Assembly (NCBI GenBank): GCA_964035575.1
Contig: OZ037841.1
Span: forward strand, 1 to 64,000
Source of the DNA: Rhynchopus sp. YZ270_cl-10
Taxonomy: Eukaryota
Reading direction: 5' to 3'
DNA: 64,000 nt
This document shows, in pieces, positions 161-63,325 of this stretch; the first letter of the stretch is position 1, and every line of letters starts with the position of its first letter. Position numbers and translations under genes: made by a program. The notes under the pieces are model-generated. The model did no database searches and was not told where the DNA came from. It saw nothing but the letters and a program-made list of their open reading frames with translations.

Positions 161-1188
161 TCTTTATCGGGTTTGTGGTAGACTTAAGAGCAGATTTGAG
201 ATGTTCACACGCAGTCAAACAGTAATTTTGCCCTATTTAGCAATATTATGACGATTAAGACCCTGTCTGATGGGACTGCGTTTAGGAAGCACTATTTGCG
301 TTGGTTGCGTTCCGTTGTGTTCAGGCGGGTTTGCCGTTGCGTTGCGTTGGCTGTGTTAAGATAGATTACGCTGTGTAAGCACTTCTGGCTTAGTTACGTT
401 GCGTTCAGGTAGTTGCGTTCATATCAGCTGCGTTTTGCTGGTTCCGTTCAGAGCGGGTTTGTGTACATAACTACGATAAAAATCAAGTGGTAAGGCTTAC
501 TACTAGCAAGGGTAAATTTCAACCAGTCCGGGTCAGTGTTTGTGTTTAGTTACGTGCACTGAGTTCAGCTCAGATTGGTTACTGTGGTTGCGTTGTGCTG
601 GTTCCGTGTGTTCGGCGGTCGTTCAGATCGGTGTTCTAATCTAAACGGAACTATGTATTACCTTCGTACATACAGGAATTCATTCAGATTGGTTCTGTGC
701 GTTCGTATTAGTCTACTCAATTCTATTGTTGTATTGTGCTGGTTCCGGTTATGTTAAGTTGCTTTGCAAATTTGATCTATGTGATCTATATGATGTTCGT
801 TTGCGTCCATCAAAGTCCCAAAAATGTCCAAATCGGTTTCTGGTTTCTGGTTTCTCTTTGTTTTGAGTTTCCTGTTAAAAGGCTACCAGTTCCAACCCAG
901 TTGCTCAATACCTGTACAACAATATTGGTAATGAACTTGCTAATGATTTCAGTCATTACGAAAATATACACTTCTTCTCCATATTTCACACTTCAGAATA
1001 CCTCCATCACACTCCCATGTCTGATGATCACTTTGGAAACTAGCAGAACATAACACCAACCGCCTTTCTACACCACAATAACATGCATACCCATGGTTGC
1101 TCACCCACCCAAAGGTCAAGTATCATAAAAGTAGACCAGTCTTCTATCAGCCACACCAGCTGGATAACGATGGTTGCTCACTTCTCGT

Positions 1189-1371
1189 GCGGGTTTACGG
1201 GTTTGCGGGTTTGCGGGTTTGCGGGTTTGCGGGTTTGCGGGTTTGCGGGTTTGCGGGTTTGCGGGTTTGCGGGTTTGCGGGTTTACGGGTTTGCGGGTTT
1301 GCGGGTTTGCGGGTTTGCGGGTTTGCGGGTTTGCGGGTTTGCGGGTTTGCGGGTTTGCGGGTTTGCGGGTT
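1189..1371. repeat. (GCGGGTTT)n microsatellite, ~23 units, at an element junction
   Basis: Read directly; flanked by ...CTTCTCGT and TCTAGTTATTACGG. Confidence 0.97.
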
Positions 1372-4300
1372 TCTAGTTATTACGGGTTTGAGGGGTACAA
1401 AATGGCGACGCTGCAGGATTGCTGGATCGCGTGGTCCCAGTATTTCTGATAATACACTCCGGTAGATTGGGGCCCAAAAACGACGTAATGTACTGGGTTT
1501 GGATGTTAGCATTTTCTGAAGATACCTAAAATGGGTGCGGCATTTCACGGCTATTTTTGTGAAGGAATTGACGATATTTTGTGGTTCTAAGGTGTGTGTA
1601 TTGTATGTGACGAAAATTTCAAAATGTGACATAAGTATGAAATATGGCCAGTATGCCCATAAAATGAGGCCATTGCAACCCTGGAGGACCACATTGGACA
1701 TATTGGGCCAAATTTAGGTGTGTAAGTGTATCGGCTTTAAAATATTTTTTTTCGTGATTTTTGGGGTCATTTTTTGGCTGGGAAAATTGGGCCACATTTA
1801 ACCACAACTACTCAAAACATCAAATCTGTGGCTTTAATGGACTGATTGGGCGTTTTTATGACCTGGACATGGGGGTCAGATACCATTTTAGACATGTTAA
1901 AAATTGGTCAGAAGACCCTGAGAGAAGAACCAAGGTCAAATTGACCTTGAGTACTGGGTCAAATTTGTGTGGGAAAAATGCCCAGTACATAATTGTTGAT
2001 GCGCAAAAGTGCAAAATTCCTTCAGCAATGGCTTCATATGACATTTCCATAACCTGGACATGGGGGTCAGACTCCACTTTTGACCACCTAAAATTTGGTC
2101 ATACACATGTATGAGACCCCAAAAACCAGGATTTTGACCAAAAAATTTTTCCCAGCAATTTTTGCCTACAAAAAATCGAAAAAAAAATTTTTTGATTTTG
2201 GCTCTCCGGAGTCTGTGCGTGCTGTGGTGGGGTCAATTTGCGCTGAGAAATGGGTATTTTTGACCTAAAATGCATGTATCAGTTTTTACATGATTTTTGG
2301 TGTTTTTGGGTTTTAGGTGGGTTTTTTGGTCAGTACCTAATTTCTGATGCTCAAAAGTACAAAATTCCTTCGGCAATGGCTTCATAGGACATTTCCATAA
2401 CCTGGACATGGGGGTCAGACTCCACTTTTGACCACCTGAAATTTGGTCATACACATGTATGAGACCCAAAAACCAGGATTTTTGACCAAAAAATATTTTC
2501 CCACCAATTTTTGCCTACAAAAAATCGAAAAAAAAAAAATTTGATTTTGGCTCTCCGGAGTCTGTGCGTGCAGTGATGGGGTCAATTTGCGCTGAGAAAT
2601 GGGTATTTTTGACCTAAAATGCATGTATCAGTTTTTACATGATTTTTGGTGTTTTGGGGGTTTTAGGTGGGTTTTTTGGTCAGTACATAATGTGCAATGC
2701 TCAAAAGTACAAAATTCCTTCGACAATCGCTTCATAGGACATTTCCATAACCTGAACATGGGGGTCAGACACCACATTAGAGCAGCTAAAATTTGGTCAT
2801 ACACACGTATGAGACCCCAAAAACCAGGATTTTGACCAAAAAATTTTTCCCAGCAATTTTTGCCTACAAAAAATCGAAAAAAAAAATTTTTGATTTTGGC
2901 TCTCCGGAGTCTGTGCGTGCAGTGATGGGGTCAATTTGCGCTGAGAAATGGGTATTTTTGACCTAAAATGCATGTATCAGTTTTTACATGATTTTTGGTG
3001 TTTTTGGGGTTTTAGGTGGGTTTTTTGGTCAGTACCTAATTTCTGATGCTCAAAAGTACAAAATTCCTTCGACAATCGCTTCATAGGACATTTCCATAAC
3101 CTGGACATGGGGGTCAGACTCAACTTTTGACCACCTAAAATTTGGTAATACACATGTATGAGACCCCAAAAACCAGGATTTTGACCAAAAAATTTTTCCC
3201 AGCAATTTTTGCCTACAAAAAATCGAAAAAAAATATTTTTGATTTTGGGTCTCCGGAGTCTGTGTGTGCTGTGATGGGGTCAATTTGCGCTGAGAAATGG
3301 GTATTTTTGACCTAAAATGCATGTATCAGTTTTTACATGATTTTTGGTGTTTTGGGGGTTTTAGGTGGGTTTTTTGGTCAGTACATAATGTGCAATGCTC
3401 AAAAGTACAAAATTCCTTCGACAATCGCTTCATAGGACATTTCCATAACCTGAACATGGGGGTCAGACACCACATTAGAGCAGCTAAAATTTGGTCATAC
3501 ACACGTATGAGACCCCAAAAACCAGGATTTTGACCAAAAAATTTTTCCCAGCAATTTTTGCCTACAAAAAATCGAAAAAAAAAATTTTTGATTTTGGCTC
3601 TCCGGAGTCTGTGTGTGCTGTGATGGGGTCAATTTGCGCTGAGAAATGGGTATTTTTGACCTAAAATTCATGTTTCAGTTTTTACATGTTTTTTGGTGTT
3701 TTTGGGGTATTGTGTGGGTTTTTTGGTCAGTACATAATGTGCAATGCTCAAAAGTACCAAATTCCTTCGCAATGGCTTCATAGGACATTTCCATAACCTG
3801 GACATGGGGGTCAGACACCACTTTTGACCACCTGAAAATTGGTCATACACATGTATGATACCCCAAAAACCAGGATTTTTGACCAAAAAATTTTCCAAGC
3901 AATTTTTGCCTACAAAAAATCAAAAAAAAAAAATTTTGATTTTGGGTCTCTGGAGTCTGTGCGTGCTGTGGTGGGGTCAATTTGCACTGAGAAATGGGTA
4001 TTTTTGACTTAAAATGCATGTATCAGTTTTTACATGATTTTAGAAAACAGAAAACCACCATATTTTTGACATTGATGACAGGCTTCCCAGCACAAGTCAG
4101 TATTTAGAACAGTGTCGTTGTTCATTGGAAGCACAACGATTATCGCTTGCCACACAACTTTGTCAAACATGGGAAGTCTCAAAATAAACGTGCCTTCCTT
4201 ACGTTAAGATGTGTGGAAAATAGCCAAGCACACAAGTACCATTATTTTGACACTGGTAGCAGTCTTCCCCGGAGATGATAGTAAATAACATTGTGCAAAC

Positions 4301-4830
4301 TGTGCAAACTTTCTTATAGTCATGCAAACCTGAAAAATTAATAGCGGCGGAGCAACCACACCACAACCAGACAAGCTTGCTACATGTTGGCGAGCTTTCT
4401 TATCCCTGTGAGTAATTTTGCGGCGGATCCAAACAGCTTAACAACCACAGTCTCTTATGTGTCAATATTAGCGGCGGAGCAAAATATCCTTCCTTAAACA
4501 CACTGCTAAACTGCTAAATTTAGCAGTTTTTGTCCAAATATTTAGTGGGTAAATCCTGCTACATTTCAGTGACCTTTTCTGATAATCTTTTACTGTATCA
4601 GTCATGTCAGCAGCATGTATCAATAATTCGCGGCGTAGCAACGTGCCTCAAAACTACATCCTCCCTCATTTTTTCGACTTTTCCGTGTCATTTCAGGTTT
4701 TCTATGAATGAATAGGCACATCATTTCTGCATTTGCTGAATGATACTAATCTTTTCAACATTAATTCGCGGCGGAGCCATATACCTCACAACCACACCAT
4801 CCTGCCACATTTTAGCGAGCTTTCTTCTAG
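1372..4830. mobile_element. Non-autonomous Helitron derivative: A-type left end, ~6 x 349-bp internal repeat, alternative right end
   Basis: Begins TCTAGTTATTACGG and ends GCGAGCTTTCTTCTAG. The first ~900 bp are near-identical to 6689-7600, and the last ~255 bp match 21615-21870. No RepHel coding sequence. Confidence 0.8.
1985..4040. repeat. 349-bp tandem repeat, ~6 copies, internal to the element
   Basis: Anchor CCTGRACATGGGGGTCAGAC at 2053, 2401, 2751, 3100, 3449 and 3797 (period 348-350). Copies 3 and 5 share diagnostic variants (GACACCACATTAGAGCAGCT), indicating a 698-bp higher-order duplication. Confidence 0.95.
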
Positions 4831-4831
4831 T

Positions 4832-6688
4832 GCGGGTTTGCGGGTTTGCGGGTTTGCGGGTTTGCGGGTTTGCGGGTTTGCGGGTTTGCGGGTTTGCGGG
4901 TTTGCGGGTTTGCGGGTTTGCGGGTTTGCGGGTTTGCGGGTTTGCGGGTTTGCGGGTTTGCGGGTTTGCGGGTTTGCGGGTTTGCGGGTTTGCGGGTTTG
5001 CGGGTTTGCGGGTTTGCGGGTTTGCGGGTTTGCGGGTTTGCGGGTTTGCGGGTTTGCGGGTTTGCGGGTTTGCGGGTTTGCGGGTTTACGGGTTTGCGGG
5101 TTTGCGGGTTTGCGGGTTTGCGGGTTTGCGGGTTTGCGGGTTTGCGGGTTTACGGGTTTGCGGGTTTGCGGGTTTGCGGGTTTGCGGGTTTGCGGGTTTG
5201 CGGGTTTGCGGGTTTGCGGGTTTGCGGGTTTGCGGGTTTGCGGGTTTGCGGGTTTGCGGGTTTGCGGGTTTGCGGGTTTGCGGGTTTGCGGGTTTACGGG
5301 TTTACGGGTTTGCGGGTTTGCGGGTTTGCGGGTTTGCGGGTTTGCGGGTTTGCGGGTTTGCGGGTTTGCGGGTTTGCGGGTTTACGGGTTTGCGGGTTTG
5401 CGGGTTTGCGGGTTTGCGGGTTTGCGGGTTTGCGGGTTTGCGGGTTTGCGGGTTTGCGGGTTTGCGGGTTTGCGGGTTTGCGGGTTTGCGGGTTTGCGGG
5501 TTTGCGGGTTTGCGGGTTTGCGGGTTTGCGGGTTTGCGGGTTTGCGGGTTTGCGGGTTTGCGGGTTTGCGGGTTTGCGGGTTTGCGGGTTTGCGGGTTTG
5601 CGGGTTTGCGGGTTTGCGGGTTTGCGGGTTTGCGGGTTTGCGGGGTTTGCGGGTTTGCGGGTTTGCGGGTTTGCGGGTTTGCGGGTTTGCGGGTTTGCGG
5701 GTTTGCGGGTTTGCGGGTTTGCGGGTTTGCGGGTTGCGGGTTTGCGGGTTTGCGGGTTTGCGGGTTTGCGGGTTTGCGGGTTTGCGGGTTTGCGGGTTTG
5801 CGGGTTTGCGGGTTTGCGGGTTTGCGGGGTTTGCGGGTTTGCGGGTTTGCGGGTTTGCGGGTTTGCGGGTTTGCGGGTTTGCGGGTTTGCGGGTTTGCGG
5901 GTTTGCGGGTTTGCGGGTTTGCGGGTTTGCGGGTTTGCGGGTTTGCGGGTTTGCGGGTTTGCGGGTTTGCGGGTTTGCGGGTTTGCGGGTTTGCGGGTTT
6001 GCGGGTTTGCGGGTTTGCGGGTTTGCGGGTTTGCGGGTTTGCGGGTTTGCGGGTTTGCGGGTTTGCGGGTTTGCGGGTTTGCGGGTTTGCGGGTTTGCGG
6101 GTTTGCGGGTTTGCGGGTTTGCGGGTTTGCGGGTTTGCGGGTTTGCGGGTTTGCGGGTTTACGAGTTTGCGGGTTTGCGGGTTTGCGGGTTTGCGGGTTT
6201 GCGGGTTTGCGGGTTTGCGGGTTTGCGGGTTTGCGGGTTTGCGGGTTTGCGGGTTTGCGGGTTTGTGGGGTTTGCGGGTTTGCGGGTTTGCGGGTTTACG
6301 GGTTTGCGGGTTTGCGGGTTTGCGGGTTTGCGGGTTTGCGGGTTTGCGGGTTTGCGGGTTTGCGGGTTTGCGGGTTTGCGGGTTTACGGGTTTGCGGGTT
6401 TGCGGGTTTGCGGGTTTGCGGGTTTGCGGGTTTGCGGGTTTGCGGGTTTGCGGGTTTGCGGGTTTGCGGGTTTGCGGGTTTGCGGGTTTGCGGGTTTGCG
6501 GGTTTGCGGGTTTGCGGGTTTGCGGGTTTGCGGGTTTGCGGGTTTGCGGGTTTGCGGGGTTTACGGGTTTGCGGGTTTGCGGGTTTGCGGGTTTGCGGGT
6601 TTGCGGGTTTGCGGGTTTGCGGGTTTGCGGGTTTGCGGGTTTGCGGGTTGCGGGTTTGCGGGTTTGCGGGTTTGCGGGTTTGCGGGTT
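4832..6688. repeat. (GCGGGTTT)n microsatellite, ~232 units
   Basis: Read directly, with rare ACGGGTTT variants and 1-bp slips; flanked by CTAG on both sides. Confidence 0.98.
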
Positions 6689-9600
6689 TCTAGTTATTAC
6701 GGGTTTGAGGGGTACAAAATGGCGACGCTGCAGGATTGCTGGATCGCGTGGTCCCAGTATTTCTGATAATACACTCCGGTAGACTGGGGCCCAAAAACGA
6801 CGTAATGTACTGGGTTTGGATGTTAGCATTTTCTGAAGATACCTAAAATGGGTGCGGCATTTCACGGCTATTTTTGTGAAGGAATTGACGATATTTTGTG
6901 GTTCTAAGGTGTGTGTATTGTATGTGACGAAAATTTCAAAATGTGACATAAGTATGAAATATGGCCAGTATGCCCATAAAATGAGGCCATTGCAACCCTG
7001 GAGGACCACATTGGACATATTGGGCCAAATTTAGGTGTGTAAGTGTATCGGCTTTAAAATATTTTTTTTCGTGATTTTTGGGGTCATTTTTTGGCTGGGA
7101 AAATTGGGCCACATTTAACCACAACTACTCAAAACATCAAATCTGTGGCTTTAATGGACTGATTGGGCGTTTTTATGACCTGGACATGGGGGTCAGATAC
7201 CATTTTAGACATGTTAAAAATTGGTCAGAAGACCCTGAGAGAAGAACCAAGGTCAAATTGACCTTGAGTACTGGGTCAAATTTGTGTGGGAAAAATGCCC
7301 AGTACATAATTGTTGATGCGCAAAAGTGCAAAATTCCTTCAGCAATGGCTTCATATGACATTTCCATAACCTGGACATGGGGGTCAGACTCCACTTTTGA
7401 CCACCTAAAATTTGGTCATACACATGTATGAGACCCCAAAAACCAGGATTTTGACCAAAAAATTTTTCCCAGCAATTTTTGCCTACAAAAAATCGAAAAA
7501 AAAATTTTTTGATTTTGGCTCTCCGGAGTCTGTGCGTGCTGTGGTGGGGTCAATTTGCGCTGAGAAATGGGTATTTTTGACCTAAAATGCATGGATCAGT
7601 TTTTTCATGATTTTTGGTGTTTTTGGTGTTTTGTGTGGGTTTTTTGGTCAGTACATAGTGTGCAGTGATCAAAAGTGCAAAGTTCCTTCGTCAATGGCTT
7701 CACAGGAAATTTTTATGACCGGGACATGGGGGTCAGACTCCACTTTTGACCACCTAAAATTTGGTCATACACACGTGTGAGACCGCAAAAACCAGGATTT
7801 TGACCAAAAAAATTTTCCCAGGTACATAATCTGTGCACTGATCAAGATTACAAAATTCATTTGTATGGATGAATTGAATATCAGGTATGTGTAGGTTTCT
7901 GTGTGGGAAGTGGTGGTGATGAGGATAGGAAAAAAGAAACAGTAAAAGTGCGTGAGCTATTCAGTCATTTTGTGTGTTTTTTCTTTTTCTTTTTCTTTTT
8001 CCTTTTCTCATTTTTGATCTTTTTATTTTTATGGCATGACAATACTCTCACCCGCCAAAGTGAGCGCCTTCTTCAAGGTGTAGTCTTTTTTTAAAGCTAT
8101 GTTTTAACCTCTTCCGCAAACCCGAAAACCCGCAAACCCTATATTTCCTTATTTTTTTTAATCCAAGACAAAAATATTTTCTTCATCACAAGAGAGTATC
8201 TCCGGCTGGGAAGAAAAAAACAACAAAAACTGCTGATCAAACCGGTCAAAAAGTCTCTGTAAAAATAAAAACTGCTACAATTTCCAAACTAATTGATTTT
8301 TTTTAAAACTAAACGAACTCCACAAAAACAGTTTAAAAAAACAGTGAAACAGAAACAAAAATAAAATCCTTTTTTTTTAGATGGGCTAAGCTTACCCAGT
8401 TTTTTTTTTCTCATATTTTTTTTCAATCCAATGAACATGTTCAAACAAATATTTCTTCATCACAAGAGATTTAATCTGATTCTCTCCGGCTGGGAAGAAA
8501 AAAAAAATAAAAATAAAAATAAAAGTCTTTTACAGTAATTTACTGTAAAGAAAAAAAGGAAAAAATTTTTTTAGTCAAGATCACCCGGTTGAAAGTCAGA
8601 AAGGTGATTGTCTGGAAATGTGGGGTAAATTAGGGCTTTTTTATGTTAGGGCTTTTTTATGTGCTTTCAGTACATTTTCTGGAGTTCCTGTACCAATGTT
8701 GAAGTGGGGAGGTTGATAAGTTTGCACTATCAGCAGTCTCTTTTCTGATGGTATTTGCATAAGAACATCTTCAGGAGATTGCCCCTTTGGCAAAAAATGA
8801 AAGCAAGAATATCCTTCTGTCTCATAGGTCCTAGAAGTGACTACTGTGATAAGAGACCTAAGCATGAGAGACATCAGTGCTACTTCTACCTCCTGCGCAT
8901 AACTGTCATCGGCATTATTTGTGACGCGTTGAAGAAGGTCATCAAAGTTCCTGTTTTGTTTACAGGTGTGGTAGAAAAGTTTAGGTTTGCGGGTTTGCGG
9001 GTTTGCACAAATACAAATGCTACATACCTTTTTTTTTTCTCTTCATCATCAAAAAGTAAGGGATGCTCCTGGATCATAATCTCATTCCTGAGCAAGAACT
9101 CTGCAAATCTTCTGCGTAGAGCATGACCATCATTTCTTTTTCCAGTGAGGAGCTGCTGTATGGCGTGATAGAAACACGTTCCATCACCAGTAACGTCAAT
9201 TTGTCCGAGGTTGAACCTGCTCAGAACATGTTGAATATTATTCTCATTGTTCCTGTAAAATATTGGTAATGGTTTTAAAGTTGTTGACCACGAAAAAAAC
9301 ATACCTATTTTTTTCAGAAACTGTAGTTGTTACATTTTTTTGTGGATGAGAAGCTTCTGGAACGTTGTTGTGGATATATTCCCTGTATAAATTGTAGTGT
9401 ATTATTTAATTAAAAATGTACAATAATTACTGTAACCATAATGTAATGCTAACATACCATCCCCCCTCTGGAAATGTAAAAGGATAGAAATCCATCGGTT
9501 GTTCTTCTTCATCCTTTGTCCAGGGAGTTACTACAAGAGACCTTCCACATGCCGGGTTGTTGATTTCGTGTTCTTTATCATCAATGGGGCTTCCATCAGC

Positions 9601-12600
9601 ATCAGGGGAACACACCACTGCAGGGTTTTCTGAAGGGTTTGCTGCACGTTCATGCATGGCCTTTGCATATACAGCCTCTGTAAGCCTCAGGTCCCGCTTC
9701 AGCTGATTCCTCCTTTCCTTACTGACCTTCATCTTTATTCCCCCAACTGACTCCTCAATGGCAGAGATGACCTCCTGGTGGACACAGTTATACAAATTTG
9801 TATCACCTTGAGGTGGAAGACAAATCTTGATGTCATTCCTGCTGCACACCCTTGACATTGCAACGTACAGATGGCCATGAGAGAAGCAGGGCGACTGTGA
9901 CACATCAAGACCCACCCTCCTGAGAGTTTGTCCCTGAGACTTATTAATCGTCATGGCAAAAGACAGCCGCACTGGAAACTGCTGACGTACAAAGTCGATG
10001 GTGAGATCCTTCGCATCACCATCGCAGGGCAGGCGAGGTATGGCAACAGTTTCTGGCTTTTTCCCGTTTTTGTTCCGCCACTCGCATTCTTCCGCCAGGT
10101 GGGTGCAGACAAGGATGTTCTTCTTCACCTCCTTCACAACAAGACGCGTTCCATTGCACAGTCCACCTGCGGGGTCGAGGTTCTTTAGAAGCATTACAAT
10201 ACAGTTGACCTTCAGGTTCAGGATGTGTGGAGGAAGACGTGCATGGTTCATTGCATTGAGTGCTTCAGTGGTGAAGAATTCATTTGCTCCTGGGTCCTTG
10301 CAGGTATCCTCTGACATACGGGTAATTGTCTCTCCTGGGAAGCTGCTGAGAATTTTTTCGTTCATGTAGACCTGGCGTGCGTTTGTAGGGCACAGCAAAG
10401 CACAGTTCTCATACATTCCATTCTTGATGTCAGGAAATGTAAAGTCAATCAAAGTATCCTCAGTCACCTTTTTGTTCTTTTTTTCAAAAATGATAGCATG
10501 TGGCACCTGCATAACTGCTTCTGTGTCCTCAGCACCCTCCACATCCCCAGCCTCATTCACAGACCCATCACCAACCTTCATGAGGTACTCACGGAAAGCG
10601 TCGTCGTCCTTCACCCTCATGACCTGCGTCAGGGACATTTTTGTGAGTTGGTTCCAGAGGTATGAGTTGTGGAGCGAAATCGAGATGCTTTCAAAGCTCC
10701 CTTTGTTTGCCCCTGGAACAGGAAGGATTTGCCTGAAGTCTCCTCCAAGAAGCACTGTCACTCCTCCAAATGGTTGTGAACATCCCCTCAACCTCTGAAG
10801 CGTTCTGTCTACTACCTCTATGCTTGCCTTTTGTGCCATTACCACCTCATCCCAGACAATGAGGTCAGTGCGCCTTAGGAGTTCGACATGGTCATCATCA
10901 AGCCCGCACATCCGCTTTGAGTTTGGTTCAAGATCTATTGGGATCTTAAATCGGCTGTGTGCAGTTCTGCCTCCTGGTAGTAGTGTAGCTGCTATCCCTG
11001 ATGTTGCCACAGCGATTGAAAAGCGGTCCTCCTCATTCTGTTGAAGTGGCTGCTGCTGCTGCTGCTGCTGTTGTTGCTTTGCCCTTGCCCTTCTGCTCCT
11101 GGCCCAGTACAAACACGCCTGGTACAGGAATGTCTTGCCTGTTCCTGCTGCACCCTGCAAAAATATGACCTTCCCCTGGTTACCTTCAACAGATTCCTTC
11201 ACAGAGTTGAAGACATTCTGCTGCCCTTCGTTGAGGTTGCCTTGAATCTGTTCAAACTTCTTCAGCATTTCACCCTCATCATACCTCTCTGTGTTTAAGA
11301 CAAACTCTGTGCTCTGCCCTGTAGTACCTTCAGGAGGAGTGGGGAGCCCAAGATCTTCCATTGAAGTCTTAACGTTCGCTTCCTTAAGGAGCCGTTGCAT
11401 GTCTAGCAAAGCTTTACGCTTCTCTTTAGGGTAGATGTGGTTGCTTGGTACTGCTTCCTCCCGTTCCTGCCTTTTTACTCTGTCCAAAGGTGGCGCACAC
11501 AGCTCAAACTCATACTCTGCCCACGCCTTTGCAACGTCTTCTGCAGTGGTCATGTAGTTTATTATTATCATTGCAAACGTAAAACGGATGGCACGTGAGG
11601 ACAGTGTTGTATTGATGCACTCTTTCAGGGCGTTACGCAAGATTGCCCCATCATGGATAAGCCCCATTTCTGCTGCAGCTGCATAAAATGTAGGATGAAC
11701 AACGGAGCCTATGGTTCTCAGCTCTTCAAAGCTGCATGATCCACGCTTGCACAGAAGAAGTAGACGGAGACAGTGCAACTCCTTATCCTTTACAGGGGCC
11801 CAGTACATCCTGCCGATTGAGAGGCCTTCTCCTTCATTTCTTTTTGAGTGAGGGCCAGGTTTATAGCAGCCTTCTTCCTCGCACCACCCATATCCCGGTC
11901 TCAGCTGCCATTCCTTCTTTTCTCTGGGGTAAGAAAAGAATTCTGGGACATCATTGTAAAGTAGTTTGTCAAAGCCTTTGTAGGCTTCATGTGCTGGAAT
12001 GCCTTCACGATGCTTCTTGCATCTTTCATTTGCTTCGAAAAAGGCAAGGAGTGTACTTTTGGATTTTGCAGCCGCATCCCTTCTCCTTGAGTCATCACCA
12101 TAATTCTTTAAAGGAAAGTACACCCTCTGCTCATCTTCGAGGTGGATGTGGAGTCTCTGCACTCCTGGGTAAATCCGCACCATCTTTGTTCCGAGTAGGT
12201 ACCCACAAGCATCAGCCGCAGTCAAACAATGTGCCTTCAGAAACCTCATAATGCTCCCAGTGGTCGTGGTCGTTGTTGTGGTTTTTGCTTCTGATGGCCC
12301 TCCTTTATGCTTTGTATCTTCCTTTATCACACCATCTACCTCATTCTCCCCCTTGAATAAGTATTTGAACAAATATTTAGCAGCAAGAATCCCGCGCACT
12401 GCCTCAATGTTGATGTGGCACTGGTACTTGAGGAGAAGATACGCATTGTAGGGAACCACCCACCTGTTGTTCCTCTGGTTTGGGTGAGTAGTTTCCCCTG
12501 GGTGTTTTTCTTTCCATTTCTTCACAACGTCTGGATCCACATAAGACAGTATCCCATGATCCCTTCTTATGACAAAGGCGTAGCCATCATTGCCAGAGGT

Positions 12601-19491: not shown

Positions 19492-19492
19492 T

Positions 19493-21870: not shown

Positions 21871-21871
21871 T

Positions 21872-49732: not shown

Positions 49733-49823
49733 ATTATTTATGCCATGTGTTCCTATGCTAATGTATGTGAAGAAAGAAGGAATCTGGGAAACAATGTGAA
49801 TAGAAATATTAATTCTCATTAAA

Positions 49824-49936: not shown

Positions 49937-50264
49937 TTTTTTTTTTGCAAAAAGTAAAGTACCCAGACCACTGTTATGTTAGTTTTGAATAGTTGTGATA
50001 AATTGCTAGAAATTGTATTGTAGAAAATATAAAATGGTGGGTGGGAGAAAGTTTTGAGTTTTCAAGAAGGAAAATAAAAAAGTCTCACAACTAAGTTTTC
50101 AAAAAAAAATAATTAAAAAATGATCTTGAAAATTTTGACAAAAATTAAAACCAATCTGCATGTGCATTAAAAAAAGGGGAACCCATATTTTTGCGCAGGA
50201 AGAAGTAATTTGCACATTCTCTGCGATAAGAAATACCCCCAAACGAAAAAAAAAAAATTATTCT

Positions 50265-50829
50265 CTAATGATGTGCTTTATTGTGCTGGAAAAGAGCACC
50301 TTTGTGTTGAAATTCCCTTCCCCTCCAAGTACTAGAGCATTCGTGAGCATAACACGTCTTTGCTATTTTTTCGTCTTCTGCTGCTTCGCGCTTTCTCTTT
50401 CTGTCTAGCTCCTGTTGAGTTTGAGTTGTTGAAAGTGATACTTGAAAAGTTGATACATACCTTTTTCATGTCCTGACACAGAAGGAACACTTCGTTCAGC
50501 TGTTTCTTGAGATCTGAGACAGTCTGTTTCACCTCTTTCAGCTCTTCAGTCACTGAGGAAAAGCTTTCTGCAGAAACAGGAATTTCCAATGCTGCGGCCT
50601 GTTCTGACGGAAGCACAGAGTCCTTCTGAGTTTGCTCCTCTGTTTTAACGCCTTGCTCCTGTACCTTCGTTAGTACTGTCTCCTTCTTCTGGGAGCACAC
50701 TGGAATTGGTGGCAATTCCTCATTCTCATGAGGAGCTTGATCCTGCACATTGAACACCGCCAACATGCTTGGTGCATCTTTCTTCTGCACAAAGGGCACT
50801 GGCTTCCGCTTAATCTTCATGGTGTTCAT
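50265..50829 (-). CDS. Accessory coiled-coil/C2H2-ZnF protein, copy 3 (intron 50412-50460)
   Basis: Same structure as 16893-17457 with a few substitutions; splice sites and ZnF ligands are kept. Confidence 0.75.
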
Positions 50830-51040
50830 AGTTTTTTGAGAAATAGTTCACCTGTTTTTGGTGTGTGAGTACAAAAGTGCTATGAAAAGAGAAATGAGGG
50901 GTGAGCCAAGTTTAATTCATTTTTCTATTCAATTTTTTCGGCATTCACATTTGTAAAAATGCAAAACCTTCAGACAATAAAAAAAAAGTTCTGTTCACAA
51001 CCACACCAGCCTCCTACATTTTAGCGAGCTTTCTTCTTGT

Positions 51041-51143
51041 GCGGGTTTGCGGGTTTGCGGGTTTGCGGGTTTGCGGGTTTGCGGGTTTGCGGGTTTGCGG
51101 GTTTGCGGGTTTGCGGGTTTGCGGGTTTGCGGGTTTGCGGGTT
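51041..51143. repeat. (GCGGGTTT)13 junction tract
   Basis: Read directly. Confidence 0.97.
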
Positions 51144-51190
51144 ACACTCTGTATATTACCGCGTTTCAGGTAGCTGAGCCGGCATCTAGT

Positions 51191-54100
51191 TGCGGGTGTG
51201 GCGGGTCTGCGGGTCTGCGGGTCGGCGGGTCTGCGGGTGTGGTGTGTGTGGGTGTGGCGGGTCTGCGGGTCTGCGGGTCTGCGGGTCTGCGCGTGTGGTG
51301 TGTGTGGGTGTGGCGGGTCTGCGGGTCTGCGGGTCTGCGGGTCTGCGGGTCTGCGGGTCTGCGGGTGTGGTGTGTGTGGGTGTGGCGGGTCTGCGGGTCT
51401 GCGGGTCTGCGGGTCTGCGGGTCTGCGGGTCTGCGGGTCTGCGGGTGTGGTGTGTGTGGGTGTGGCGGGTCTGCGGGTCTGCGGGTCTGCGGGTCTGCGG
51501 GTGTGGTGTGTGTGGGTGTGGCGGGTCTGCGGGTCTGCGGGTCTGCGGGTGTGGTGTGTGTGGGTGTGGCGGGTCTGCGGGTCTGCGGGTCTGCGGGTCT
51601 GCGGGTGTGGTGTGTGTGGGTGTGGCGGGTCTGCGGGTCTGCGGGTCTGCGGGTGTGGTGTGTGTGGGTGTGGCGGGTCTGCGGGTCTGCGGGTCTGCGG
51701 GTCTGCGGGTCTGCGGGTCTGCGGGTCGGCGGGTCTGCGGGTGTGGTGTGTGTGGGTGTGGCGGGTCTGCGGGTCTGCGGGTCTGCGGGTCTGCGGGTCT
51801 GCGGGTCTGCGGGTCTGCGGGTGTGGTGTGTGTGGGTGTGGCGGGTCTGCGGGTCTGCGGGTCTGCGGGTCTGCGGGTGTGGTGTGTGTGGGTGTGGCGG
51901 GTCTGCGGGTCTGCGGGTCTGCGGGTGTGGTGTGTGTGGGTGTGGCGGGTCTGCGGGTCTGCGGGTCTGCGGGTCTGCGGGTGTGGTGTGTGTGGGTGTG
52001 GCGGGTCTGCGGGTCTGCGGGTCTGCGGGTGTGGTGTGTGTGGGTGTGGCGGGTCTGCGGGTCTGCGGGTCTGCGGGTCTGCGGGTCTGCGGGTCTGCGG
52101 GTCGGCGGGTCTGCGGGTGTGGTGTGTGTGGGTGTGGCGGGTCTGCGGGTCTGCGGGTCTGCGGGTCTGCGGGTCTGCGGGTCTGCGGGTCTGCGGGTCT
52201 GCGGGTCTGCGGGTCTGCGGGTCTGCGGGTCTGCGGGTCTGCGGGTCTGCGGGTCTGCGGGTCTGCGGGTCTGCGGGTCTGCGGGTGTGGTGTGTGTGGG
52301 TGTGGCGGGTCTGCGGGTCTGCGGGTCGGCGGGTCTGCGGGTGTGGTGTGTGTGGGTGTGGCGGGTCTGCGGGTCTGCGGGTCTGCGGGTCTGCGGGTCT
52401 GCGGGTCTGCGGGTCTGCGGGTCTGCGGGTCTGCGGGTGTGGTGTGTGTGGCTGTGGCGGGTCTGCGGGTCTGCGGGTCTGCGGGTCTGCGGGTCTGCGG
52501 GTCTGCGGGTCTGCGGGTCTGCGGGTCTGCGGGTCTGCGGGTCTGCGGGTCTGCGGGTCTGCGGGTCTGCGGGTGTGGTGTGTGGTGTGTGTGGGTGTGG
52601 CGGGTCTGCGGGTCTGCGGGTCGGCGGGTCTGCGGGTGTGGTGTGTGTGGGTGTGGCGGGTCTGCGGGTCTGCGGGTCTGCGGGTCTGCGGGTCTGCGGG
52701 TCTGCGGGTCTGCGGGTCTGCGGGTCTGCGGGTCTGCGGGTCTGCGGGTCTGCGGGTCTGCGGGTCTGCGGGTCTGCGGGTCTGCGGGTGTGGTGTGTGT
52801 GGGTGTGGCGGGTCTGCGGGTCTGCGGGTCTGCGGGTCTGCGGGTCTGCGGGTCTGCGGGTCTGCGGGTCTGCGGGTCTGCGGGTCTGCGGGTCTGCGGG
52901 TCTGCGGGTGTGGTGTGTGTGGGTGTGGCGGGTCTGCGGGTCTGCGGGTCTGCGGGTCTGCGGGTCTGCGGGTGTGGTGTGTGTGGGTGTGGCGGGTCTG
53001 CGGGTCTGCGGGTCTGCGGGTCTGCGGGTCTGCGGGTCTGCGGGTCTGCGGGTGTGGTGTGTGTGGGTGTGGCGGGTCTGCGGGTCTGCGGGTCTGCGGG
53101 TCTGCGGGTCTGCGGGTCTGCGGGTCTGCGGGTCTGCGGGTGTGGTGTGTGTGGGTGTGGCGGGTCTGCGGGTCTGCGGGTCGGCGGGTCTGCGGGTGTG
53201 GTGTGTGTGGGTGTGGCGGGTCTGCGGGTCTGCGGGTCTGCGGGTCTGCGGGTCTGCGGGTCTGCGGGTCTGCGGGTCTGCGGGTCTGCGGGTGTGGTGT
53301 GTGTGGGTGTGGCGGGTCTGCGGGTCTGCGGGTCTGCGGGTCTGCGGGTCTGCGGGTCTGCGGGTCTGCGGGTCTGCGGGTCTGCGGGTCTGCGGGTCTG
53401 CGGGTCTGCGGGTGTGGTGTGTGTGGGTGTGGCGGGTCTGCGGGTCTGCGGGTCTGCGGGTCTGCGGGTCTGCGGGTCTGCGGGTGTGGTGTGTGTGGGT
53501 GTGGCGGGTCTGCGGGTCTGCGGGTCTGCGGGTCTGCGGGTCTGCGGGTCTGCGGGTCTGCGGGTCTGCGGGTCTGCGGGTCTGCGGGTCTGCGGGTCTG
53601 CGGGTCTGCGGGTGTGGTGTGTGTGGGTGTGGCGGGTCTGCGGGTCTGCGGGTCTGCGGGTCTGCGGGTCTGCGGGTCTGCGGGTCTGCGGGTGTGGTGT
53701 GTGTGGGTGTGGCGGGTCTGCGGGTCTGCGGGTCTGCGGGTCTGCGGGTGTGGTGTGTGTGGGTGTGGCGGGTCTGCGGGTCTGCGGGTCTGCGGGTCGG
53801 CGGGTCGGCGGGTCTGCGGGTGTGGTGTGTGTGGGTGTGGCGGGTCTGCGGGTCTGCGGGTCTGCGGGTCTGCGGGTCTGCGGGTGTGGTGTGTGTGGGT
53901 GTGGCGGGTCTGCGGGTCTGCGGGTCTGCGGGTCTGCGGGTCTGCGGGTCTGCGGGTCTGCGGGTGTGGTGTGTGTGGGTGTGGCGGGTCTGCGGGTCTG
54001 CGGGTCTGCGGGTCTGCGGGTGTGGTGTGTGTGGGTGTGGCGGGTCTGCGGGTCTGCGGGTCTGCGGGTCGGCGGGTCGGCGGGTCGGCGGGTCTGCGGG

Positions 54101-55110
54101 TGTGGTGTGTGTGGGTGTGGCGGGTCTGCGGGTCTGCGGGTCTGCGGGTCTGCGGGTGTGGTGTGTGTGGGTGTGGCGGGTCTGCGGGTCTGCGGGTCGG
54201 CGGGTCTGCGGGTGTGGTGTGTGTGGGTGTGGCGGGTCTGCGGGTCTGCGGGTCTGCGGGTGTGGTGTGTGTGGGTGTGGCGGGTCTGCGGGTCTGCGGG
54301 TCGGCGGGTCTGCGGGTGTGGTGTGTGTGAGTGTGGCGGGTCTGCGGGTCTGCGGGTCTGCGGGTCTGCGGGTCTGCGGGTCTGCGGGTCTGCGGGTCTG
54401 CGGGTCTGCGGGTCTGCGGGTCTGCGGGTCTGCGGGTCTGCGGGTGTGGTGTGTGTGGGTGTGGCGGGTCTGCGGGTCTGCGGGTCTGCGGGTCTGCGGG
54501 TCTGCGGGTCTGCGGGTCGGCGGGTCGGCGGGTCTGCGGGTGTGGTGTGTGTGGGTGTGGCGGGTCAGCGGGTCTGCGGGTCTGCGGGTCTGCGGGTCTG
54601 CGGGTCGGCGGGTCGGCGGGTCTGCGGGTGTGGTGTGTGTGGGTGTGGCGGGTCTGCGGGTCTGCGGGTCTGCGGGTCTGCGGGTCGGCGGGTCTGCGGG
54701 TGTGGTGTGTGTGGGTGTGGCGGGTCTGCGGGTCTGCGGGTCTGCGGGTCTGCGGGTCTGCGGGTCTGCGGGTCTGCGGGTCTGCGGGTCTGCGGGTCTG
54801 CGGGTCTGCGGGTCTGCGGGTCTGCGGGTGTGGTGTGTGTGGGTGTGGCGGGTCTGCGGGTCTGCGGGTCTGCGGGTCTGCGGGTCTGCGGGTCTGCGGG
54901 TCTGCGGGTCTGCGGGTCTGCGGGTCTGCGGGTCTGCGGGTCTGCGGGTCTGCGGGTCTGCGGGTCTGCGGGTCTGCGGGTCTGCGGGTCTGCGGGTCTG
55001 CGGGTGTGGTGTGTGTGGGTGTGGCGGGTCTGCGGGTCTGCGGGTCGGCGGGTCTGCGGGTCTGCGGGTCTGCGGGTCTGCGGGTGTGGTGTGTGTGGGT
55101 GTAGCGGGTC
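51191..55110. repeat. Compound satellite: (GCGGGTCT)n interrupted by the 24-bp unit GCGGGTGTGGTGTGTGTGGGTGTG
   Basis: Read directly; the 24-bp unit equals 3 x 8 and preserves the phase. Confidence 0.97.
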
Positions 55111-55139
55111 TGTGGCGGGTTTGCGGGTTTGCGGGTTTG

Positions 55140-57041
55140 TGGCAAATGATGGCAAATGATGGCAAATGATGGCAAATCATGGCAAATTATGGCAAATGAT
55201 GGCAAATGATGGCAAATGATGGCAAATGATGGCAAATGATGGCAAATGATGGCAAATGATGGCAAATGATGGCAAATGATGGCAAATCTTGGCAAATTAT
55301 GGCAAATGATGGCAAATTATGGCAAATGATGGCAAATCATGGGAAATGATGGCAAATCATGGCAAATCATGGCAAATCATGGCAAATGATGGCAAATGAT
55401 GGCAAATGATGGCAAATGATGGCAAATGATGGCAAATCATGGCAAATCATGGAAAATTATGGCAAATGATGGCAAATGATGGCAAATGATGGCAAATCAT
55501 GGCAAATGATGGCAAATGATGGCAAATCATGGCAAATCATGGCAAATGATGGCAAATCATGGCAAATCATGGCAAATCATGGCAAATCATGGCAAATCAT
55601 GGCAAATCATGGCAAATTATGGCAAATGATGGCAAATCATGGCAAATGATGGCAAATCATGGCAAATTATGGCAAATGATGGCAAATGATGGCAAATGAT
55701 GGCAAATGATGGCAAATCATGGCAAATCATGGCAAATCATGGCAAATCATGGCAAATCATGGCAAATGATGGCAAATCATGGCAAATGATGGCAAATCAT
55801 GGTAAATCCCTAGTTAGCCATAAAACTGATATCCAAAAAAAATTTACAATGTTCGGAAATTTTGAACAGTATTTATGTGGGGTGGTTTTTGGGCCCAAAA
55901 TATCAACACAGTGTCTCCACTGGGGAAATTGCGTCAATTTAAGTGGGATAAGTGCTATGTGGCGAAAAAAATCGAAAATTTTGAAATTTGTTCACCACAG
56001 TGGGAAAATAGTGCAAATCATGGCAAAGCATGGCAAATCATGGCAAATCATGGCAAATGATGGCAAATGATGGCAAATCATGGCAAATGATGGCAACTGA
56101 TGGCAAATGATGGCAAATCATGGCAAATTATGGCAAATGATGGCAAAACATGGCAAATGATGGCAAAACATGGCAAATGATGGCAAATCATGGCAAATCA
56201 TGGCAAATCCTGGCAAAACAATGCAAATGATGGCAAATCCTGGCAAATGATGGCAAATGATGGCAAATGATGGCAAATCATGGCAAAACATGGCAAATCA
56301 TGGCAAATCATGGTAAATCCCAAGTTAGCCATAAAACTGATATCCAAAAAAAATTTACAATGTTCGGAAATTTTGAACAGTATTTATGTGGGGTGGTTTT
56401 TGGGCCCAAAATTTCAACACAGTGTCTCCACTGGGGAAATTGCGTCAATTTAAGTGGGATAAGTGCTATGTGGCGAAAAAAATCGAAAATTTTGAAATTT
56501 GTTCACTACAGTGGGAAAATAGTGCAAATCATGGCAAATCATGGCAAATCATGGCAAAGCATGGCAAATCATGGCAAATGATGGCAAATCATGGCAAATC
56601 ATGGCAAATCATGGTAAATCCCAAGTTAGCCATAAAACTGATATCCAAAAAATATTTACAATGTTCGGAAATTTTGAACAGTATTTATGTGGGGTGGTTT
56701 TTGGGCCCAAAATTTCAACACAGTGTCTCCACTGGGGAAATTGCGTCAATTTAAGTGGGATAAGTGCTATGTGGCGAAAAAAATCGAAAATTTTGAAATT
56801 TGTTCACTACAGTGGGAAAATAGTGCAAATCATGGCAAATCATGGCAAATCATGGCAAATGATGGCAAATCATGGCAAATCATGGCAAATGATGGCAAAT
56901 GATGGCAAATGATGGCAAATCATGGCAAATTATGGCAAATGATGGCAAATCATGGCAAATGATGGGAAATCATGGCAAATGATGGCAAATCATGGCAAAG
57001 CATGGCAAATGATGGCAAATCCTGGCAAATGATGGGAAATC
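55140..57041. repeat. 10-bp satellite (ATGGCAAATS)n with three near-identical ~215-bp inserts (from 55801, 56312, 56613)
   Basis: Read directly. Confidence 0.96.
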
Positions 57042-57042
57042 A

Positions 57043-57504
57043 TTGACACTCCGTGACACTTTTCAGAACACTTCTGATACTGATGCCCCTGAAGTTGTAG
57101 AGACCTCAGTCGCTGGAGTGAATACGCTTCTACCCGATGTGAGCAGCTTGCAGGCTACTCACAAAAATATTCTTGGGGATCACATTGCAATGGTGGTGGT
57201 GATGGAGTACCAGAAGAGGGGTCTGCCTCATGCTAATGCAATTCTTTGGAACAACAACAGAACATCACCGAAGAATCCTTTAAATGTGGGTCACATCGTA
57301 CAACTCCCTGGACCAGCACACCCAAACCTCTACAAAGCTTTCAGTCAGTATCTGATGAACAACAGGTGGATGGTTCATTACAATCTTCTCCTGAAATATC
57401 GGCGCCACAGAAACAATGAGGAAGTGCGCGGGGTCCTTGTTGTTAAGTATTTGTTTAAATACTTATTCAAGGGTGAGCCTGTGACAGGTCTATTGATGCA
57501 ATGA
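57043..57504 (+). pseudogene. Internally deleted Helitron Rep relic
   Basis: KNILGDHIAMVVVMEYQKRGLPHANAILWNNN (HUH changed to HAN), NNRWMVHYN and KYLFKYLFKG are colinear with A/B Rep, with large in-frame deletions. Opposite strand to the intact genes. Confidence 0.88.
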
Positions 57505-58215
57505 TTTGTGTGGTAGAGTTGTGAACATTAAGGATAAAATAAGAAAACAAATAAAAAATAGCGATAAGTGGGGAGATGTCTTTGTGGGCTTGCGGGTTTG
57601 CGGGTTTTTTTGTCTCAGTTAATTTTTGTTTTTGCAAAGGAAATCTCTTGTGATGAAGAAAACATTATTTTTGGGGAGTTTGTTGTTAATTGCATAAAAA
57701 GAAAAGAAAAAAAGAAAAAGAAAAAGATAAAAGTTGAAGTGAAGTTACAATTACTGGCAGTAAAGCAAATAAAAAACTTCAACACCAAAACACAGTTCAA
57801 ATGATCTAAGAAGTGTTTATTTTTCTATTTTAAATTGTTTTTTGTTTGGGTTTGTATTGGATACTTCTTCCCAGCCGGAGAGAAATCTCTTGTGATGAAG
57901 AAAACATTGTTTTTGGGGAGTTTGTTGTTGATTGCATAAAAAAAAAGGGAAAAAAAGAAAAAGAGAAAAGGTGTATCTACATTTATCAGAGCAAACCCGC
58001 AAACAAAATAACTGGGGTGTCACAGTTTTTGTTTTTTTTTATTTATTGTTTTTAGTGCCTGCTTCCGTCAGAGGTGTTTGTCAAAAATGAAATATGTCTG
58101 AACAAAAACAAAGAACACTTCAAATTTCGTTTTTTTACTACTAGTAAAGTAATTTTACGCTTCCAAAACACACACACTACCTCAGTCAATCATACACATA
58201 TTCATACACAAAAAA

Positions 58216-58719
58216 ATGCCCAAAACCCAAAGGCAACAGCTGCAGCACGACATTGACACGTTTTTGGACCTTCCTGTCACAGCTGGCCCTATAGAGCTAG
58301 CCCTGCACAAGGCAGTGGTGGCTGTCCTCTACTGCGGAGGAATTAATGAATCCGTGTGTGCAACACTGAAATCCACTGCAATGACAAGTGACGATTATGG
58401 TGCCACATTCGAGTACAAGATCGGCGGGAAGCAAAAAAGATTCTCAATTCCAGTGGGAACTCCGGCTTACGATGCCGTTCACAACTATGTGAGCGTGCGT
58501 ACGGGGTTCAAAAGCCCATACTTCTTCCTGGAATGTGACGCCACAAAATGCTTTCTGAGAGACAGGAGGATGCCAGTGAAAGCAGTGCACATGATCCTGC
58601 AAAGAATGGCTGTTACCGTAGGCACTAATCCTGCGGCTAAGCGACCTCCGTATGATGAGCATGACGCGCAGGCTGTACTAAATATTTTTTTCTACCATGT
58701 CATCTCTCTCTTTAAGTAA
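58216..58719 (+). CDS. 167-aa protein resembling a degenerate tyrosine-recombinase (Crypton/integrase-like) catalytic domain
   Basis: ATG start and a GC-richer island within AT-rich flanks. The pattern DIDTFL...KAVVAVLYCGGIN-E...YVSVR...YFFL...MAVTVG..P...YDEH follows YR domain order as I recall it, but the catalytic R, HxxR and Y appear lost. Recognition by eye only. Confidence 0.5.
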   Translation: MPKTQRQQLQHDIDTFLDLPVTAGPIELALHKAVVAVLYCGGINESVCATLKSTAMTSDDYGATFEYKIGGKQKRFSIPVGTPAYDAVHNYVSVRTGFKSPYFFLECDATKCFLRDRRMPVKAVHMILQRMAVTVGTNPAAKRPPYDEHDAQAVLNIFFYHVISLFK

Positions 58720-59162
58720 AAGAAATAGCAATACGTTTGTGGGGTGTGGGTTTCTAGGGTTTCGGGTTTTTTCGTAGTAGTAGTATCTTAAGGTGTCTTC
58801 AATATTTTGGTAGTAGTAGTATTATAAATCGTCTTAAATTTTTTGGTAGTGGTAGTATGCGGGTATTTTAAAACATCTTCAATCAGAAAAAAAAACAAAA
58901 AAAACAAAACAAAAAAAAAGAAAATAATGTCACGATAAAAACAAAGAAAAGAATCTATATATTTTTTCCTTTTTTGCAAAACATTGTACCCCTCCCAAAA
59001 CACACACATCACAACAGAGTAGTAACACTATGTTAGAGTAAAATGAAATAGAAAAGGTGAGACAACGTATTAGATAGTTGTAATCTAACATAATTACGCT
59101 TCAGGCACACCAGCCAGCTATCACACACACCAGCTAGATAACGATGGTTGCTCACTTCTCGT

Positions 59163-59369
59163 GCGGGTTTGCGGGTTTGCGGGTTTGCGGGTTTGCGGGT
59201 TTGCGGGTTTGCGGGTTTGCGGGTTTGCGGGTTTGCGGGTTTGCGGGTTTGCGGGTTTGCGGGTTTGCGGGTTTGCGGGTTTGCGGGTTTGCGGGTTTGC
59301 GGGTTTGCGGGTTTGCGGGTTTGCGGGTTTGCGGGTTTGCGGGTTTGCGGGTTTGCGGGTTTGCGGGTT
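59163..59369. repeat. (GCGGGTTT)n junction tract, ~26 units
   Basis: Read directly. Confidence 0.97.
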
Positions 59370-59416
59370 ACTCTCTGTATATTACCGCGTTTCAGGTAGC
59401 TGAGCCGGCATCTAGT

Positions 59417-63324: not shown

Positions 63325-63325
63325 A

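What the first reader, a model, noticed from the sequence alone, without database searches (positions are those of the whole stretch)
1187..59370. Every intact terminus sits at the same register of a (GCGGGTTT)n tract: apparent microsatellite-targeted insertion
Seen: left junctions read GCGGGTT|TCTAG (1372, 6689, 17716, 19508, 21887, 32227) or GCGGGTT|AC (51144, 59370). Right junctions read CTAG|TGCGGG (4830, 17667, 19491, 21870, 32178), CTTG|TGCGGG (51039) or CTCG|TGCGGG (1187, 59161). Removing any complete unit restores a perfect GCGGGTTTGCGGG with no duplication, and the spacer varies from 2 to ~232 units. Knowledge: no TSD and TC...CTRR ends are Helitron hallmarks, but the usual target is just A|T. 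Inference: sequence-specific targeting of an 8-bp repeat, shared by three distinct end types and perhaps read by the N-terminal zinc fingers. I am not aware of such a specificity being established for Helitrons.
Basis: partly seen in the sequence, partly recalled or inferred. Interest (0 to 1): 0.9.

Follow-up and report, generated by a model that had tools for sequence, protein, structure and literature searches.

The report
Helitrons locked into an 8-base microsatellite
Several rolling-circle jumping genes (Helitrons) lie head to tail, each one sitting at exactly the same position of a short GCGGGTTT repeat, which likely means their enzyme picks this repeat as its landing site, a precision so far described only for a distant Helitron group in Paramecium telomeres.

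Summary
Confirmed. All 16 terminal signals in the window abut (GCGGGTTT)n at GGGTT|TGCGG, in one orientation, without duplication. The repeat holds no AT, the canonical Helitron target. The transposase is HLE1-like (Helraiser E=3e-149; HUH and both tyrosines intact; no EN or DUF6570), yet its ORF runs antisense to the TC…CTAG ends and no conserved hairpin exists. Duplication shrinks the evidence: eight junctions reduce to six configurations. Contigs from other studies show the same junctions, further end types and a 28–30-base insert in the same register, and no intact end in other DNA, but low depth limits that absence. Best reading: sequence-specific insertion into a likely subtelomeric, non-telomerase repeat (0.6), probably read by the Rep domain. 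The zinc fingers fit poorly: base-contact positions vary and lack arginines. Rivals: repeat carried by the element, or passive duplication. Precedent exists: Paramecium Helitrons insert into telomeric repeats (PMC13085455), so this is a new variant, apparently in another clade with another target. The scan had not reported it on other DNA.

The parts
1..160 (-). (CCCCATA)23 perfect repeat; likely the telomere (G-rich strand TATGGGG on minus), opposite in polarity to the target repeat
   Evidence: TRF period 7, 100%; telomere status inferred from position and purity, not tested; no relevant paper found
161..1187 (+). Partial unit C0 ending in a type-C right end (CTCG)
   Evidence: Last 53 bases 89% identical to the C1 right end
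1188..1371 (+). Spacer, 23 units of TGCGGGTT (2 TACGGGTT variants)
1372..4830 (+). E1, non-autonomous unit: A-left end, six copies of a 349-base satellite, a-right end
4831..6688 (+). Spacer, about 232 units
6689..15205 (+). Family A copy up to the assembly gap; RepHel ORF on minus strand; 4 substitutions and 2 gaps in 8419 bases against 40405-48806
15406..17667 (+). Family B right part after the gap, ending in b-right (CTAG); near-identical duplicate of 29917-32178
17668..17715 (+). Spacer, 6 units
17716..19491 (+). E4, 1776-base non-autonomous unit: B-left, b-right
19492..19507 (+). Spacer, 2 units
19508..21870 (+). E5, 2363-base non-autonomous unit: B-left, a-right
21871..21886 (+). Spacer, 2 units
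21887..32178 (+). E6, full-length family B element (10292 bases); transposase on minus strand at 24385-31144, broken by a frameshift near 29830
32179..32226 (+). Spacer, 6 units
32227..34484 (+). E7, E5-like unit lacking about the last 100 bases of its right end
34485..40404 (.). Foreign block: retrotransposon-like fragment, 172/346-base satellite, (AGCTAAGG)48
40405..51039 (+). E8, family A element lacking the first 98 bases of the left end; right end CTTG
43028..49855 (-). Intact 2275-residue RepHel ORF (likely start M42 at 49732): zinc-finger array residues 126-308, HUH H1137/H1139, Y1294/Y1298, PIF1 helicase
42590..42604 (+). Internal (GCGGGTTT)2 in family A, unoccupied (also 8989-9003)
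51040..51143 (+). Spacer, 13 units
51144..59161 (+). C1, 8018-base non-autonomous unit: AC start, 4-kb (GCGGGTCT)-type satellite, 10-base satellite, decayed Rep fragment in + orientation near 57150-57480, CTCG end
59162..59369 (+). Spacer, 26 units
59370..64000 (+). C2, second type-C unit, cut by the window end

Best explanation
A lineage of Helitrons with an HLE1-like transposase lies head to tail in a (GCGGGTTT)n tract, always at GGGTT|TGCGG with no duplication, likely because the transposase inserts sequence-specifically into this repeat near a probable chromosome end. Shown: intact HUH-Y2 Rep and PIF1 helicase, three left and four right end types in one register, autonomous and deleted copies. 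Inferred: the G-rich strand is the transferred strand (left end as start, T|TC; right end as stop, CTNG|T; ORF reversed); the Rep domain would recognise single-stranded GCGGGTT|TGCGG with the surface that reads its own start end, which in family A carries two degenerate target units; each insertion would split a tract and leave both halves as new targets, and slippage and block duplication then vary the spacers.
For: 16 of 16 termini at one register and orientation, none nested in about 55 kb of AT- and TT-rich element bodies. The repeat has no AT site, whereas Helraiser prefers AT in AT-rich DNA (PMC4778049 passages). Families A and B are about 74% identical in DNA over the ORF and type C ends differ strongly, yet the register is the same. 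In other runs, 7 of 7 listed contig pieces that clearly span an intact terminus continue into the repeat (X2 records 3, 6, 7, 8; X7 records 9, 10, 11), plus X1 record 7 and X3 record 16; 0 of 17 loose-end rows put other DNA at an intact terminus. A further left-end variant (X2), a further right-end type (X2, X9) and a 28-30-base insert at the same register (X2, X7, X8, probably X9) appear there. A protein one residue from the window's ORF occurs unchanged on 11 contigs, cluster of 34, which suggests recent activity. About 650 GCGGGTC units, changed at the base just 5' of the cut, hold no terminus (suggestive only, as they lie inside type C). A-left resembles the target more than shuffles do (p=0.003). 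Precedents: PMC13085455 sections 14 and 18; AAV integration site mirrors the viral terminus (PMC11014581 passages).
Against: No solo copy, array edge or empty allele was seen. Duplicated blocks cut eight junctions to six configurations, and identical blocks carry spacers of 2 and 6 units, so spacer variation can arise after duplication. None of the spanning contigs has the 31 letters on both sides that the tool asks for to count as bridging; X1 and X2 may be the source sample; depths of 3-18 in X2 and X7 could hide single-copy flanks; one search showed only 24 of 236 loose ends. One right-end-like match in X7 record 10 stops 3 bases short of the terminus and is not followed by the repeat. Target likeness of the left end is weak in B (p=0.05) and in C (p=0.07 to 0.65), with 32 comparisons made. 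Type C starts with AC, breaking the T-after-the-cut rule. Internal (GCGGGTTT)2-3 sites at 8989, 42590, 55115, 57592 and 63875 are unoccupied. The transferred strand was not determined.
Confidence: 0.6

Rival explanations
1. The repeat travels with the element: replication runs past the stop end into the tract and is cut there, or rolling-circle concatemers are laid down head to tail, so the repeat is a variable tail rather than a pre-existing target.
For: All units share one orientation. Family A's left end holds degenerate units and type C holds 4 kb of a target-derived satellite. Helraiser bypasses its 3' end and carries flanks along (PMC4778049 abstract and passages). In X2, X7 and X8 no repeat boundary other than element ends, the short insert or adapter-like letters was listed.
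Against: Three families with different ends share the spacers; a tail of variable length ending always in one register still needs sequence-specific cutting of the repeat; no contig shows a terminus against unique DNA, which array edges should give (depth-limited).
Confidence: 0.2
2. Passive amplification: one or a few old insertions into the tract, then unequal recombination, gene conversion and block duplication in a subtelomere (or assembly duplication near the gap) multiplied the junctions and kept the register.
For: Blocks of 2.5 to 8.4 kb are 99.9% identical, one starting right after the gap. Families A and B share a 1.2-kb right region with 19 substitutions although their ORFs differ by about a quarter. 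Recombination inside the repeat keeps the register by itself.
Against: Junction bases stay exact across ends that diverged long ago; further end types and the short insert in other runs keep the register; an intact ORF nearly identical on many contigs suggests ongoing transposition.
Confidence: 0.15
3. Targeting is real but is read by the N-terminal zinc-finger array on double-stranded repeat DNA.
For: Five pattern-matching fingers in families A and B against 0 to 2 in ten next relatives; weak matches to DNA-binding finger proteins (E 1.5e-5 to 2e-4).
Against: Mostly CCHC-type, 59% identity between families, variable -1/2/3/6 residues, arginine nearly absent; the expectation of arginine for G-rich triplets is recalled from the C2H2 code and may not hold for these fingers. 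The structure model was unusable (pLDDT 39).
Confidence: 0.15

Closest known systems
Paramecium aurelia telomeric Helitrons (PMC13085455; abstract, passages and sections 14 and 18 read)
   Same: Copies flanked on both sides by a short G/C-skewed tandem repeat of variable length and fixed polarity, at chromosome ends, one orientation, several interchangeable ends, satellites between ORF and ends, ORF reversed in some families, ORF-less derivatives; targeting proposed, not assayed.
   Different: Those form a third clade with 9-10-kb ORFs and insert into the telomerase repeat in telomere polarity, ending in CCAA after a stem-loop. Here the 6.8-kb ORF is close to Helraiser, the target is an 8-mer that differs from the likely telomere repeat and has the opposite polarity, a single-base register is seen, and no conserved hairpin was found.
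Canonical Helitrons, HLE1 (Helraiser; PMC4778049 passages, PMC11417382 passages, PDB 7LCC)
   Same: RepHel with HUH and both tyrosines, PIF1, Herpes_Helicase hit, no EN or DUF6570, no target duplication, TC and CTAG at most ends.
   Different: Target is T|T in a GC-rich repeat, not A|T in AT-rich DNA; ORF antisense to TC…CTAG; no conserved 3' hairpin; extra N-terminal finger array.
HLE2: Helitron2, Helentron, HLE2-reverse (PMC3627910 and PMC11417382 passages)
   Same: T|T target; Helitron-1N1_CRe inserts between TTTT and T/C; some have reversed ORFs; non-autonomous copies with internal satellites.
   Different: No EN or DUF6570, no terminal inverted repeats in A or B; the published specificity is a T run, not a register in a longer repeat.
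Telomeric Helitrons of Drosophila biarmipes (PMC6581046 passages)
   Same: Helitrons and satellites at chromosome ends.
   Different: Those are fragmented, randomly oriented and not targeted.
AAV Rep integration at AAVS1 (PMC11014581 passages)
   Same: An HUH enzyme with a helicase uses a short tandem motif shared by its own terminus and the chromosomal target; a mechanistic analogy.
   Different: Virus, SF3 helicase, unrelated protein family; analogy untested here.

Membership tests
HLE1 (canonical Helitron) | RepHel transposase with HUH motif, two tyrosines and PIF1 helicase | tested here: met
   Pfam Helitron_like_N E=2e-34, PIF1 E=8e-54; Helraiser E=3.3e-149, H1137/H1139 and Y1294/Y1298 align to its HUH and Y727/Y731
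HLE1 (canonical Helitron) | No EN domain, no DUF6570 | tested here: met
   Neither found at E<=0.1 in the three transposase ORFs; marker value from PMC11417382
HLE1 (canonical Helitron) | 5' TC and 3' CTRR | tested here: inconclusive
   TC in 6 of 8 left ends, CTAG in 5 of 8 right ends, read on the strand opposite to the ORF
HLE1 (canonical Helitron) | Hairpin just inside the 3' end | tested here: not met
   Five right ends fold at -1.9 to -5.9 kcal/mol on either strand with no shared stem
HLE1 (canonical Helitron) | Insertion between A and T | tested here: not met
   T|T in 7 of 7 units; the spacers contain no AT
HLE1 (canonical Helitron) | No target-site duplication | tested here: met
   Flanks rejoin to an intact repeat in 7 of 7 units; a duplication of whole repeat units could not be seen
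HLE1 (canonical Helitron) | Falls in the HLE1 clade | tested here: inconclusive
   Rep tree of 56 sequences chosen from 123: A and B group with unnamed relatives (support 0.97), apart from named plant and animal elements under midpoint rooting; no HLE2 or Paramecium reference was available
HLE2 (Helitron2/Helentron) | Insertion between T and T | tested here: met
HLE2 (Helitron2/Helentron) | Short asymmetric terminal inverted repeats with hairpins | tested here: not met
   Exact inverted matches between the outer 200 bases of A or B left ends and a or b right ends reach at most 10 bases and start 154 bases inside the left end
HLE2 (Helitron2/Helentron) | DUF6570 and, for Helentrons, EN | tested here: not met
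Paramecium telomeric Helitrons | Both ends flanked by a variable tandem repeat of fixed polarity | tested here: met
Paramecium telomeric Helitrons | The flanking repeat is the telomerase repeat in telomere polarity | tested here: inconclusive
   The window starts with a different perfect repeat of opposite polarity; which repeat caps the chromosomes could not be checked
Paramecium telomeric Helitrons | Transposase in the third clade | not testable with these tools
   No reference protein was available; strong similarity to Helraiser and the shorter ORF argue against

The most novel reading that the evidence does not exclude
An active Helitron lineage with a Helraiser-type transposase has evolved true single-base target specificity for a GC-rich, AT-free 8-base microsatellite that is not the telomere repeat, independently of the Paramecium clade, and its own derivatives carry a one-base variant of the repeat that is immune to insertion. 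It would be a natural site-specific Helitron integrase whose target-reading surface can be mapped against Helraiser.
Probability: 0.4. Interest if true: 0.82.

Novelty: new variant of a known kind. Interest (0 to 1): 0.64.

Why it matters
How Helitrons choose and nick their target is the least understood step of rolling-circle transposition; the one reconstituted element prefers only an AT dinucleotide. An intact, many-copy transposase that aligns to the solved Helraiser structure and appears to use one phosphodiester bond in an 8-base repeat makes the question testable with oligonucleotide nicking assays and domain swaps. It would also show repeat targeting arising a second time in Helitrons, as a safe-harbour strategy familiar from site-specific retrotransposons, and would hint at retargetable Helitron vectors.

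Tried and rejected
No whole genome is held, so no genome-wide target logo. Metagenome scan for the repeat-to-left-end junction: 0 hits. Metagenome scan for the repeat: 32 loci, 0 of 32 with a tblastn hit to four transposases; uninformative about this organism. Viral contigs: 0 hits for the repeat, the right end, or the Rep protein. No RNA holder listed; no evidence either way. Fold of the N-terminal 523 residues: pLDDT 39, not used, no fold search run. The protein atlas gave no answer. Base-pairing guide model: no right end pairs with either target strand better than shuffles (16+ tests, p 0.09 to 0.94), and only A-left does; rejected as a general mechanism. Helentron membership rejected (no EN, DUF6570 or terminal inverted repeats). 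Paper searches for Helitron microsatellite targeting, for HLE1/HLE2 and for the repeat motifs (one search was weakened by a whole-word term) found only the Paramecium precedent; Repbase reports, subscription papers and supplements (including Paramecium Figure S15, which may show a fixed register) were not seen.
Full report
Observation. A search of both strands for the four terminal signals, allowing mismatches, found exactly these 16, all on the + strand and all touching the repeat. Spacers hold 23, about 232, 6, 2, 2, 6, 13 and 26 units; seven are exact multiples of eight bases. The flanks of 7 of 7 bounded units rejoin to an intact repeat at GGGTT|TGCGG. For families A and B one T is ambiguous; type C, which starts with AC, fixes the register. 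The spacers contain none of the window's 4024 AT sites and 5% of its TT/AA sites, so neither the HLE1 nor the HLE2 dinucleotide rule predicts this clustering.

Anatomy. The window opens with 23 perfect copies of CCCCATA, likely a telomere; the G-rich strand of the target runs the other way, so the target is probably not the telomerase repeat (inference). Behind it lies a head-to-tail array: family A (6689 onward and 40405-51039), family B (21887-32178), deletion derivatives with a 349-base satellite (1372-4830, 17716-19491, 19508-21870, 32227-34484) and satellite-filled type C units (51144-59161, 59370 onward). A and B left ends share their first 14 bases; all right ends share a CACACCA motif about 40 bases inside and end in CTTCT[A/T/C]G. 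Left and right types are mixed among units.

Transposase. Three long ORFs lie on the minus strand, antisense to TC…CTAG. [quoted passage not shown] It aligns to Helraiser at E=3.3e-149 with the HUH motif and both tyrosines kept. The best matches outside the A/B families are at most 40% identical over the Rep region. A protein one residue away occurs unchanged on 11 contigs; the contigs of this cluster reach about 2 Mb. In a Rep tree of 56 sequences chosen from 123, A and B group with unnamed relatives at support 0.97, apart from named plant and animal Helitrons; HLE2 and Paramecium references were lacking. No conserved hairpin and no terminal inverted repeat was found. The element is therefore HLE1-like in protein but fails the HLE1 tests for target, hairpin and ORF orientation; I do not file it as a canonical member.

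Independence. Large blocks are near-identical: 15406-19263 and 29917-33774 (1 substitution), 19260-21767 and 31947-34484 (none), 6787-15205 and 40405-48806 (4). The three b-right/B-left junctions may be one event, and they carry spacers of 6, 2 and 6 units, so spacer length changes after duplication. Six configurations remain. The duplicate beginning at the gap may be an assembly repeat.

Other sequencing runs. Ten runs from six studies hold the element; seven were laid, as contigs only. On 17590-17800, 110 contigs from four runs were laid. Of the 30 pieces listed (81 not shown), seven clearly span an intact terminus and all seven continue into the repeat; one piece with six mismatches (X9 record 29) was left out. 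The loose-end table was complete, 17 rows: five are element ends, including a new left variant and two new right types; six are a 28-30-base insert that begins CTAG or CGAG after GGGTT and ends in G before TGCGGG, the same register, and that resembles the type-C right end in inverted form; three look like sequencing adapters (recalled); three in X9 are other, one of them a plain tract edge. No row puts other DNA at an intact terminus. One search adds two spanning pieces (X1 record 7, X3 record 16) but showed only 24 of 236 loose ends. Against this: no piece has 31 letters on both sides, X1 and X2 may be the source sample, depths are low in X2 and X7, and X7 record 10 holds a right-end-like stretch that stops three bases short and lacks the repeat.

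Mechanism. I favour sequence-specific insertion (0.6). On the G-rich strand every A/B cut has T just after it (T|TC, CTNG|T, target T|T), as in Helraiser's junctions A|TC and CTAG|T (PMC4778049 passages); left ends are more varied than right ends, as reported for start ends (PMC11417382 passage); reversed ORFs are known. This strand assignment is inferred, about 60% likely. Family A's left end carries two degenerate target units (p=0.003 against shuffles, one of 32 comparisons; B and C weak), recalling how the AAV integration site mirrors the viral terminus (PMC11014581 passages). About 650 GCGGGTC units inside type C, altered at the base before the cut, hold no insertion, which is suggestive only. 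Rivals are a repeat tail carried by the element (0.2) and passive duplication (0.15); the first can coexist with targeting.

Comparison and novelty. Paramecium Helitrons flanked on both sides by telomeric repeats, with fixed polarity, reversed ORFs and internal satellites, were described in PMC13085455 (abstract, passages, sections 14 and 18 read). That removes the claim that repeat targeting is unknown for Helitrons. What appears new is a Helraiser-like transposase, a target that seems not to be the telomerase repeat, and a single-base register; my searches found no such case, but they miss Repbase, subscription journals and unread supplements. Earlier notes of this scan held nothing on this genome or protein; one note on a microsatellite carried inside a Helitron sharpened the tail rival. 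Verdict: real, new variant of a known kind, interest 0.64.

Noticed in passing
window 1-160: Perfect (CCCCATA)23 at the window start; a possible unusual telomere repeat (TATGGGG) for which no relevant paper was found.
   Followed up: partly
window 34485-34916 (+): 144-residue open frame resembling the region upstream of the reverse transcriptase in CRE-type non-LTR retrotransposons (resemblance recalled; no Pfam hit); it replaces the end of unit E7.
   Followed up: partly
window 34920-40404: Block with a 172/346-base satellite, a duplicated 650-base segment and a perfect (AGCTAAGG)48 tract joined to a truncated family A left end; possibly another element with its own target repeat.
   Followed up: no
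runs X2, X7, X8, X9 laid on window 17667-17707: A higher-order satellite of a 28-30-base insert alternating with about five repeat units; the insert resembles the type-C right end in inverted orientation and may be a minimal or abortive element.
   Followed up: partly
window 49824-51039 versus 16456-17667 and 30967-32178: Families A and B share a 1.2-kb right region at 98% although their ORFs are about 74% identical: recent exchange of the promoter-side end.
   Followed up: partly
window 57150-57480 and 63440-63760: Decayed Rep fragment in + orientation inside type C, opposite to the ORFs of families A and B.
   Followed up: partly
window 58153-58719 (+): 188-residue open frame in type C with no Pfam match.
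   Followed up: partly
proteins P0011, P0009, P0185: A second multicopy Helitron lineage (36-39% identical in Rep, no finger array) whose clusters list contig lengths shared with the A/B clusters; its target is unknown.
   Followed up: partly
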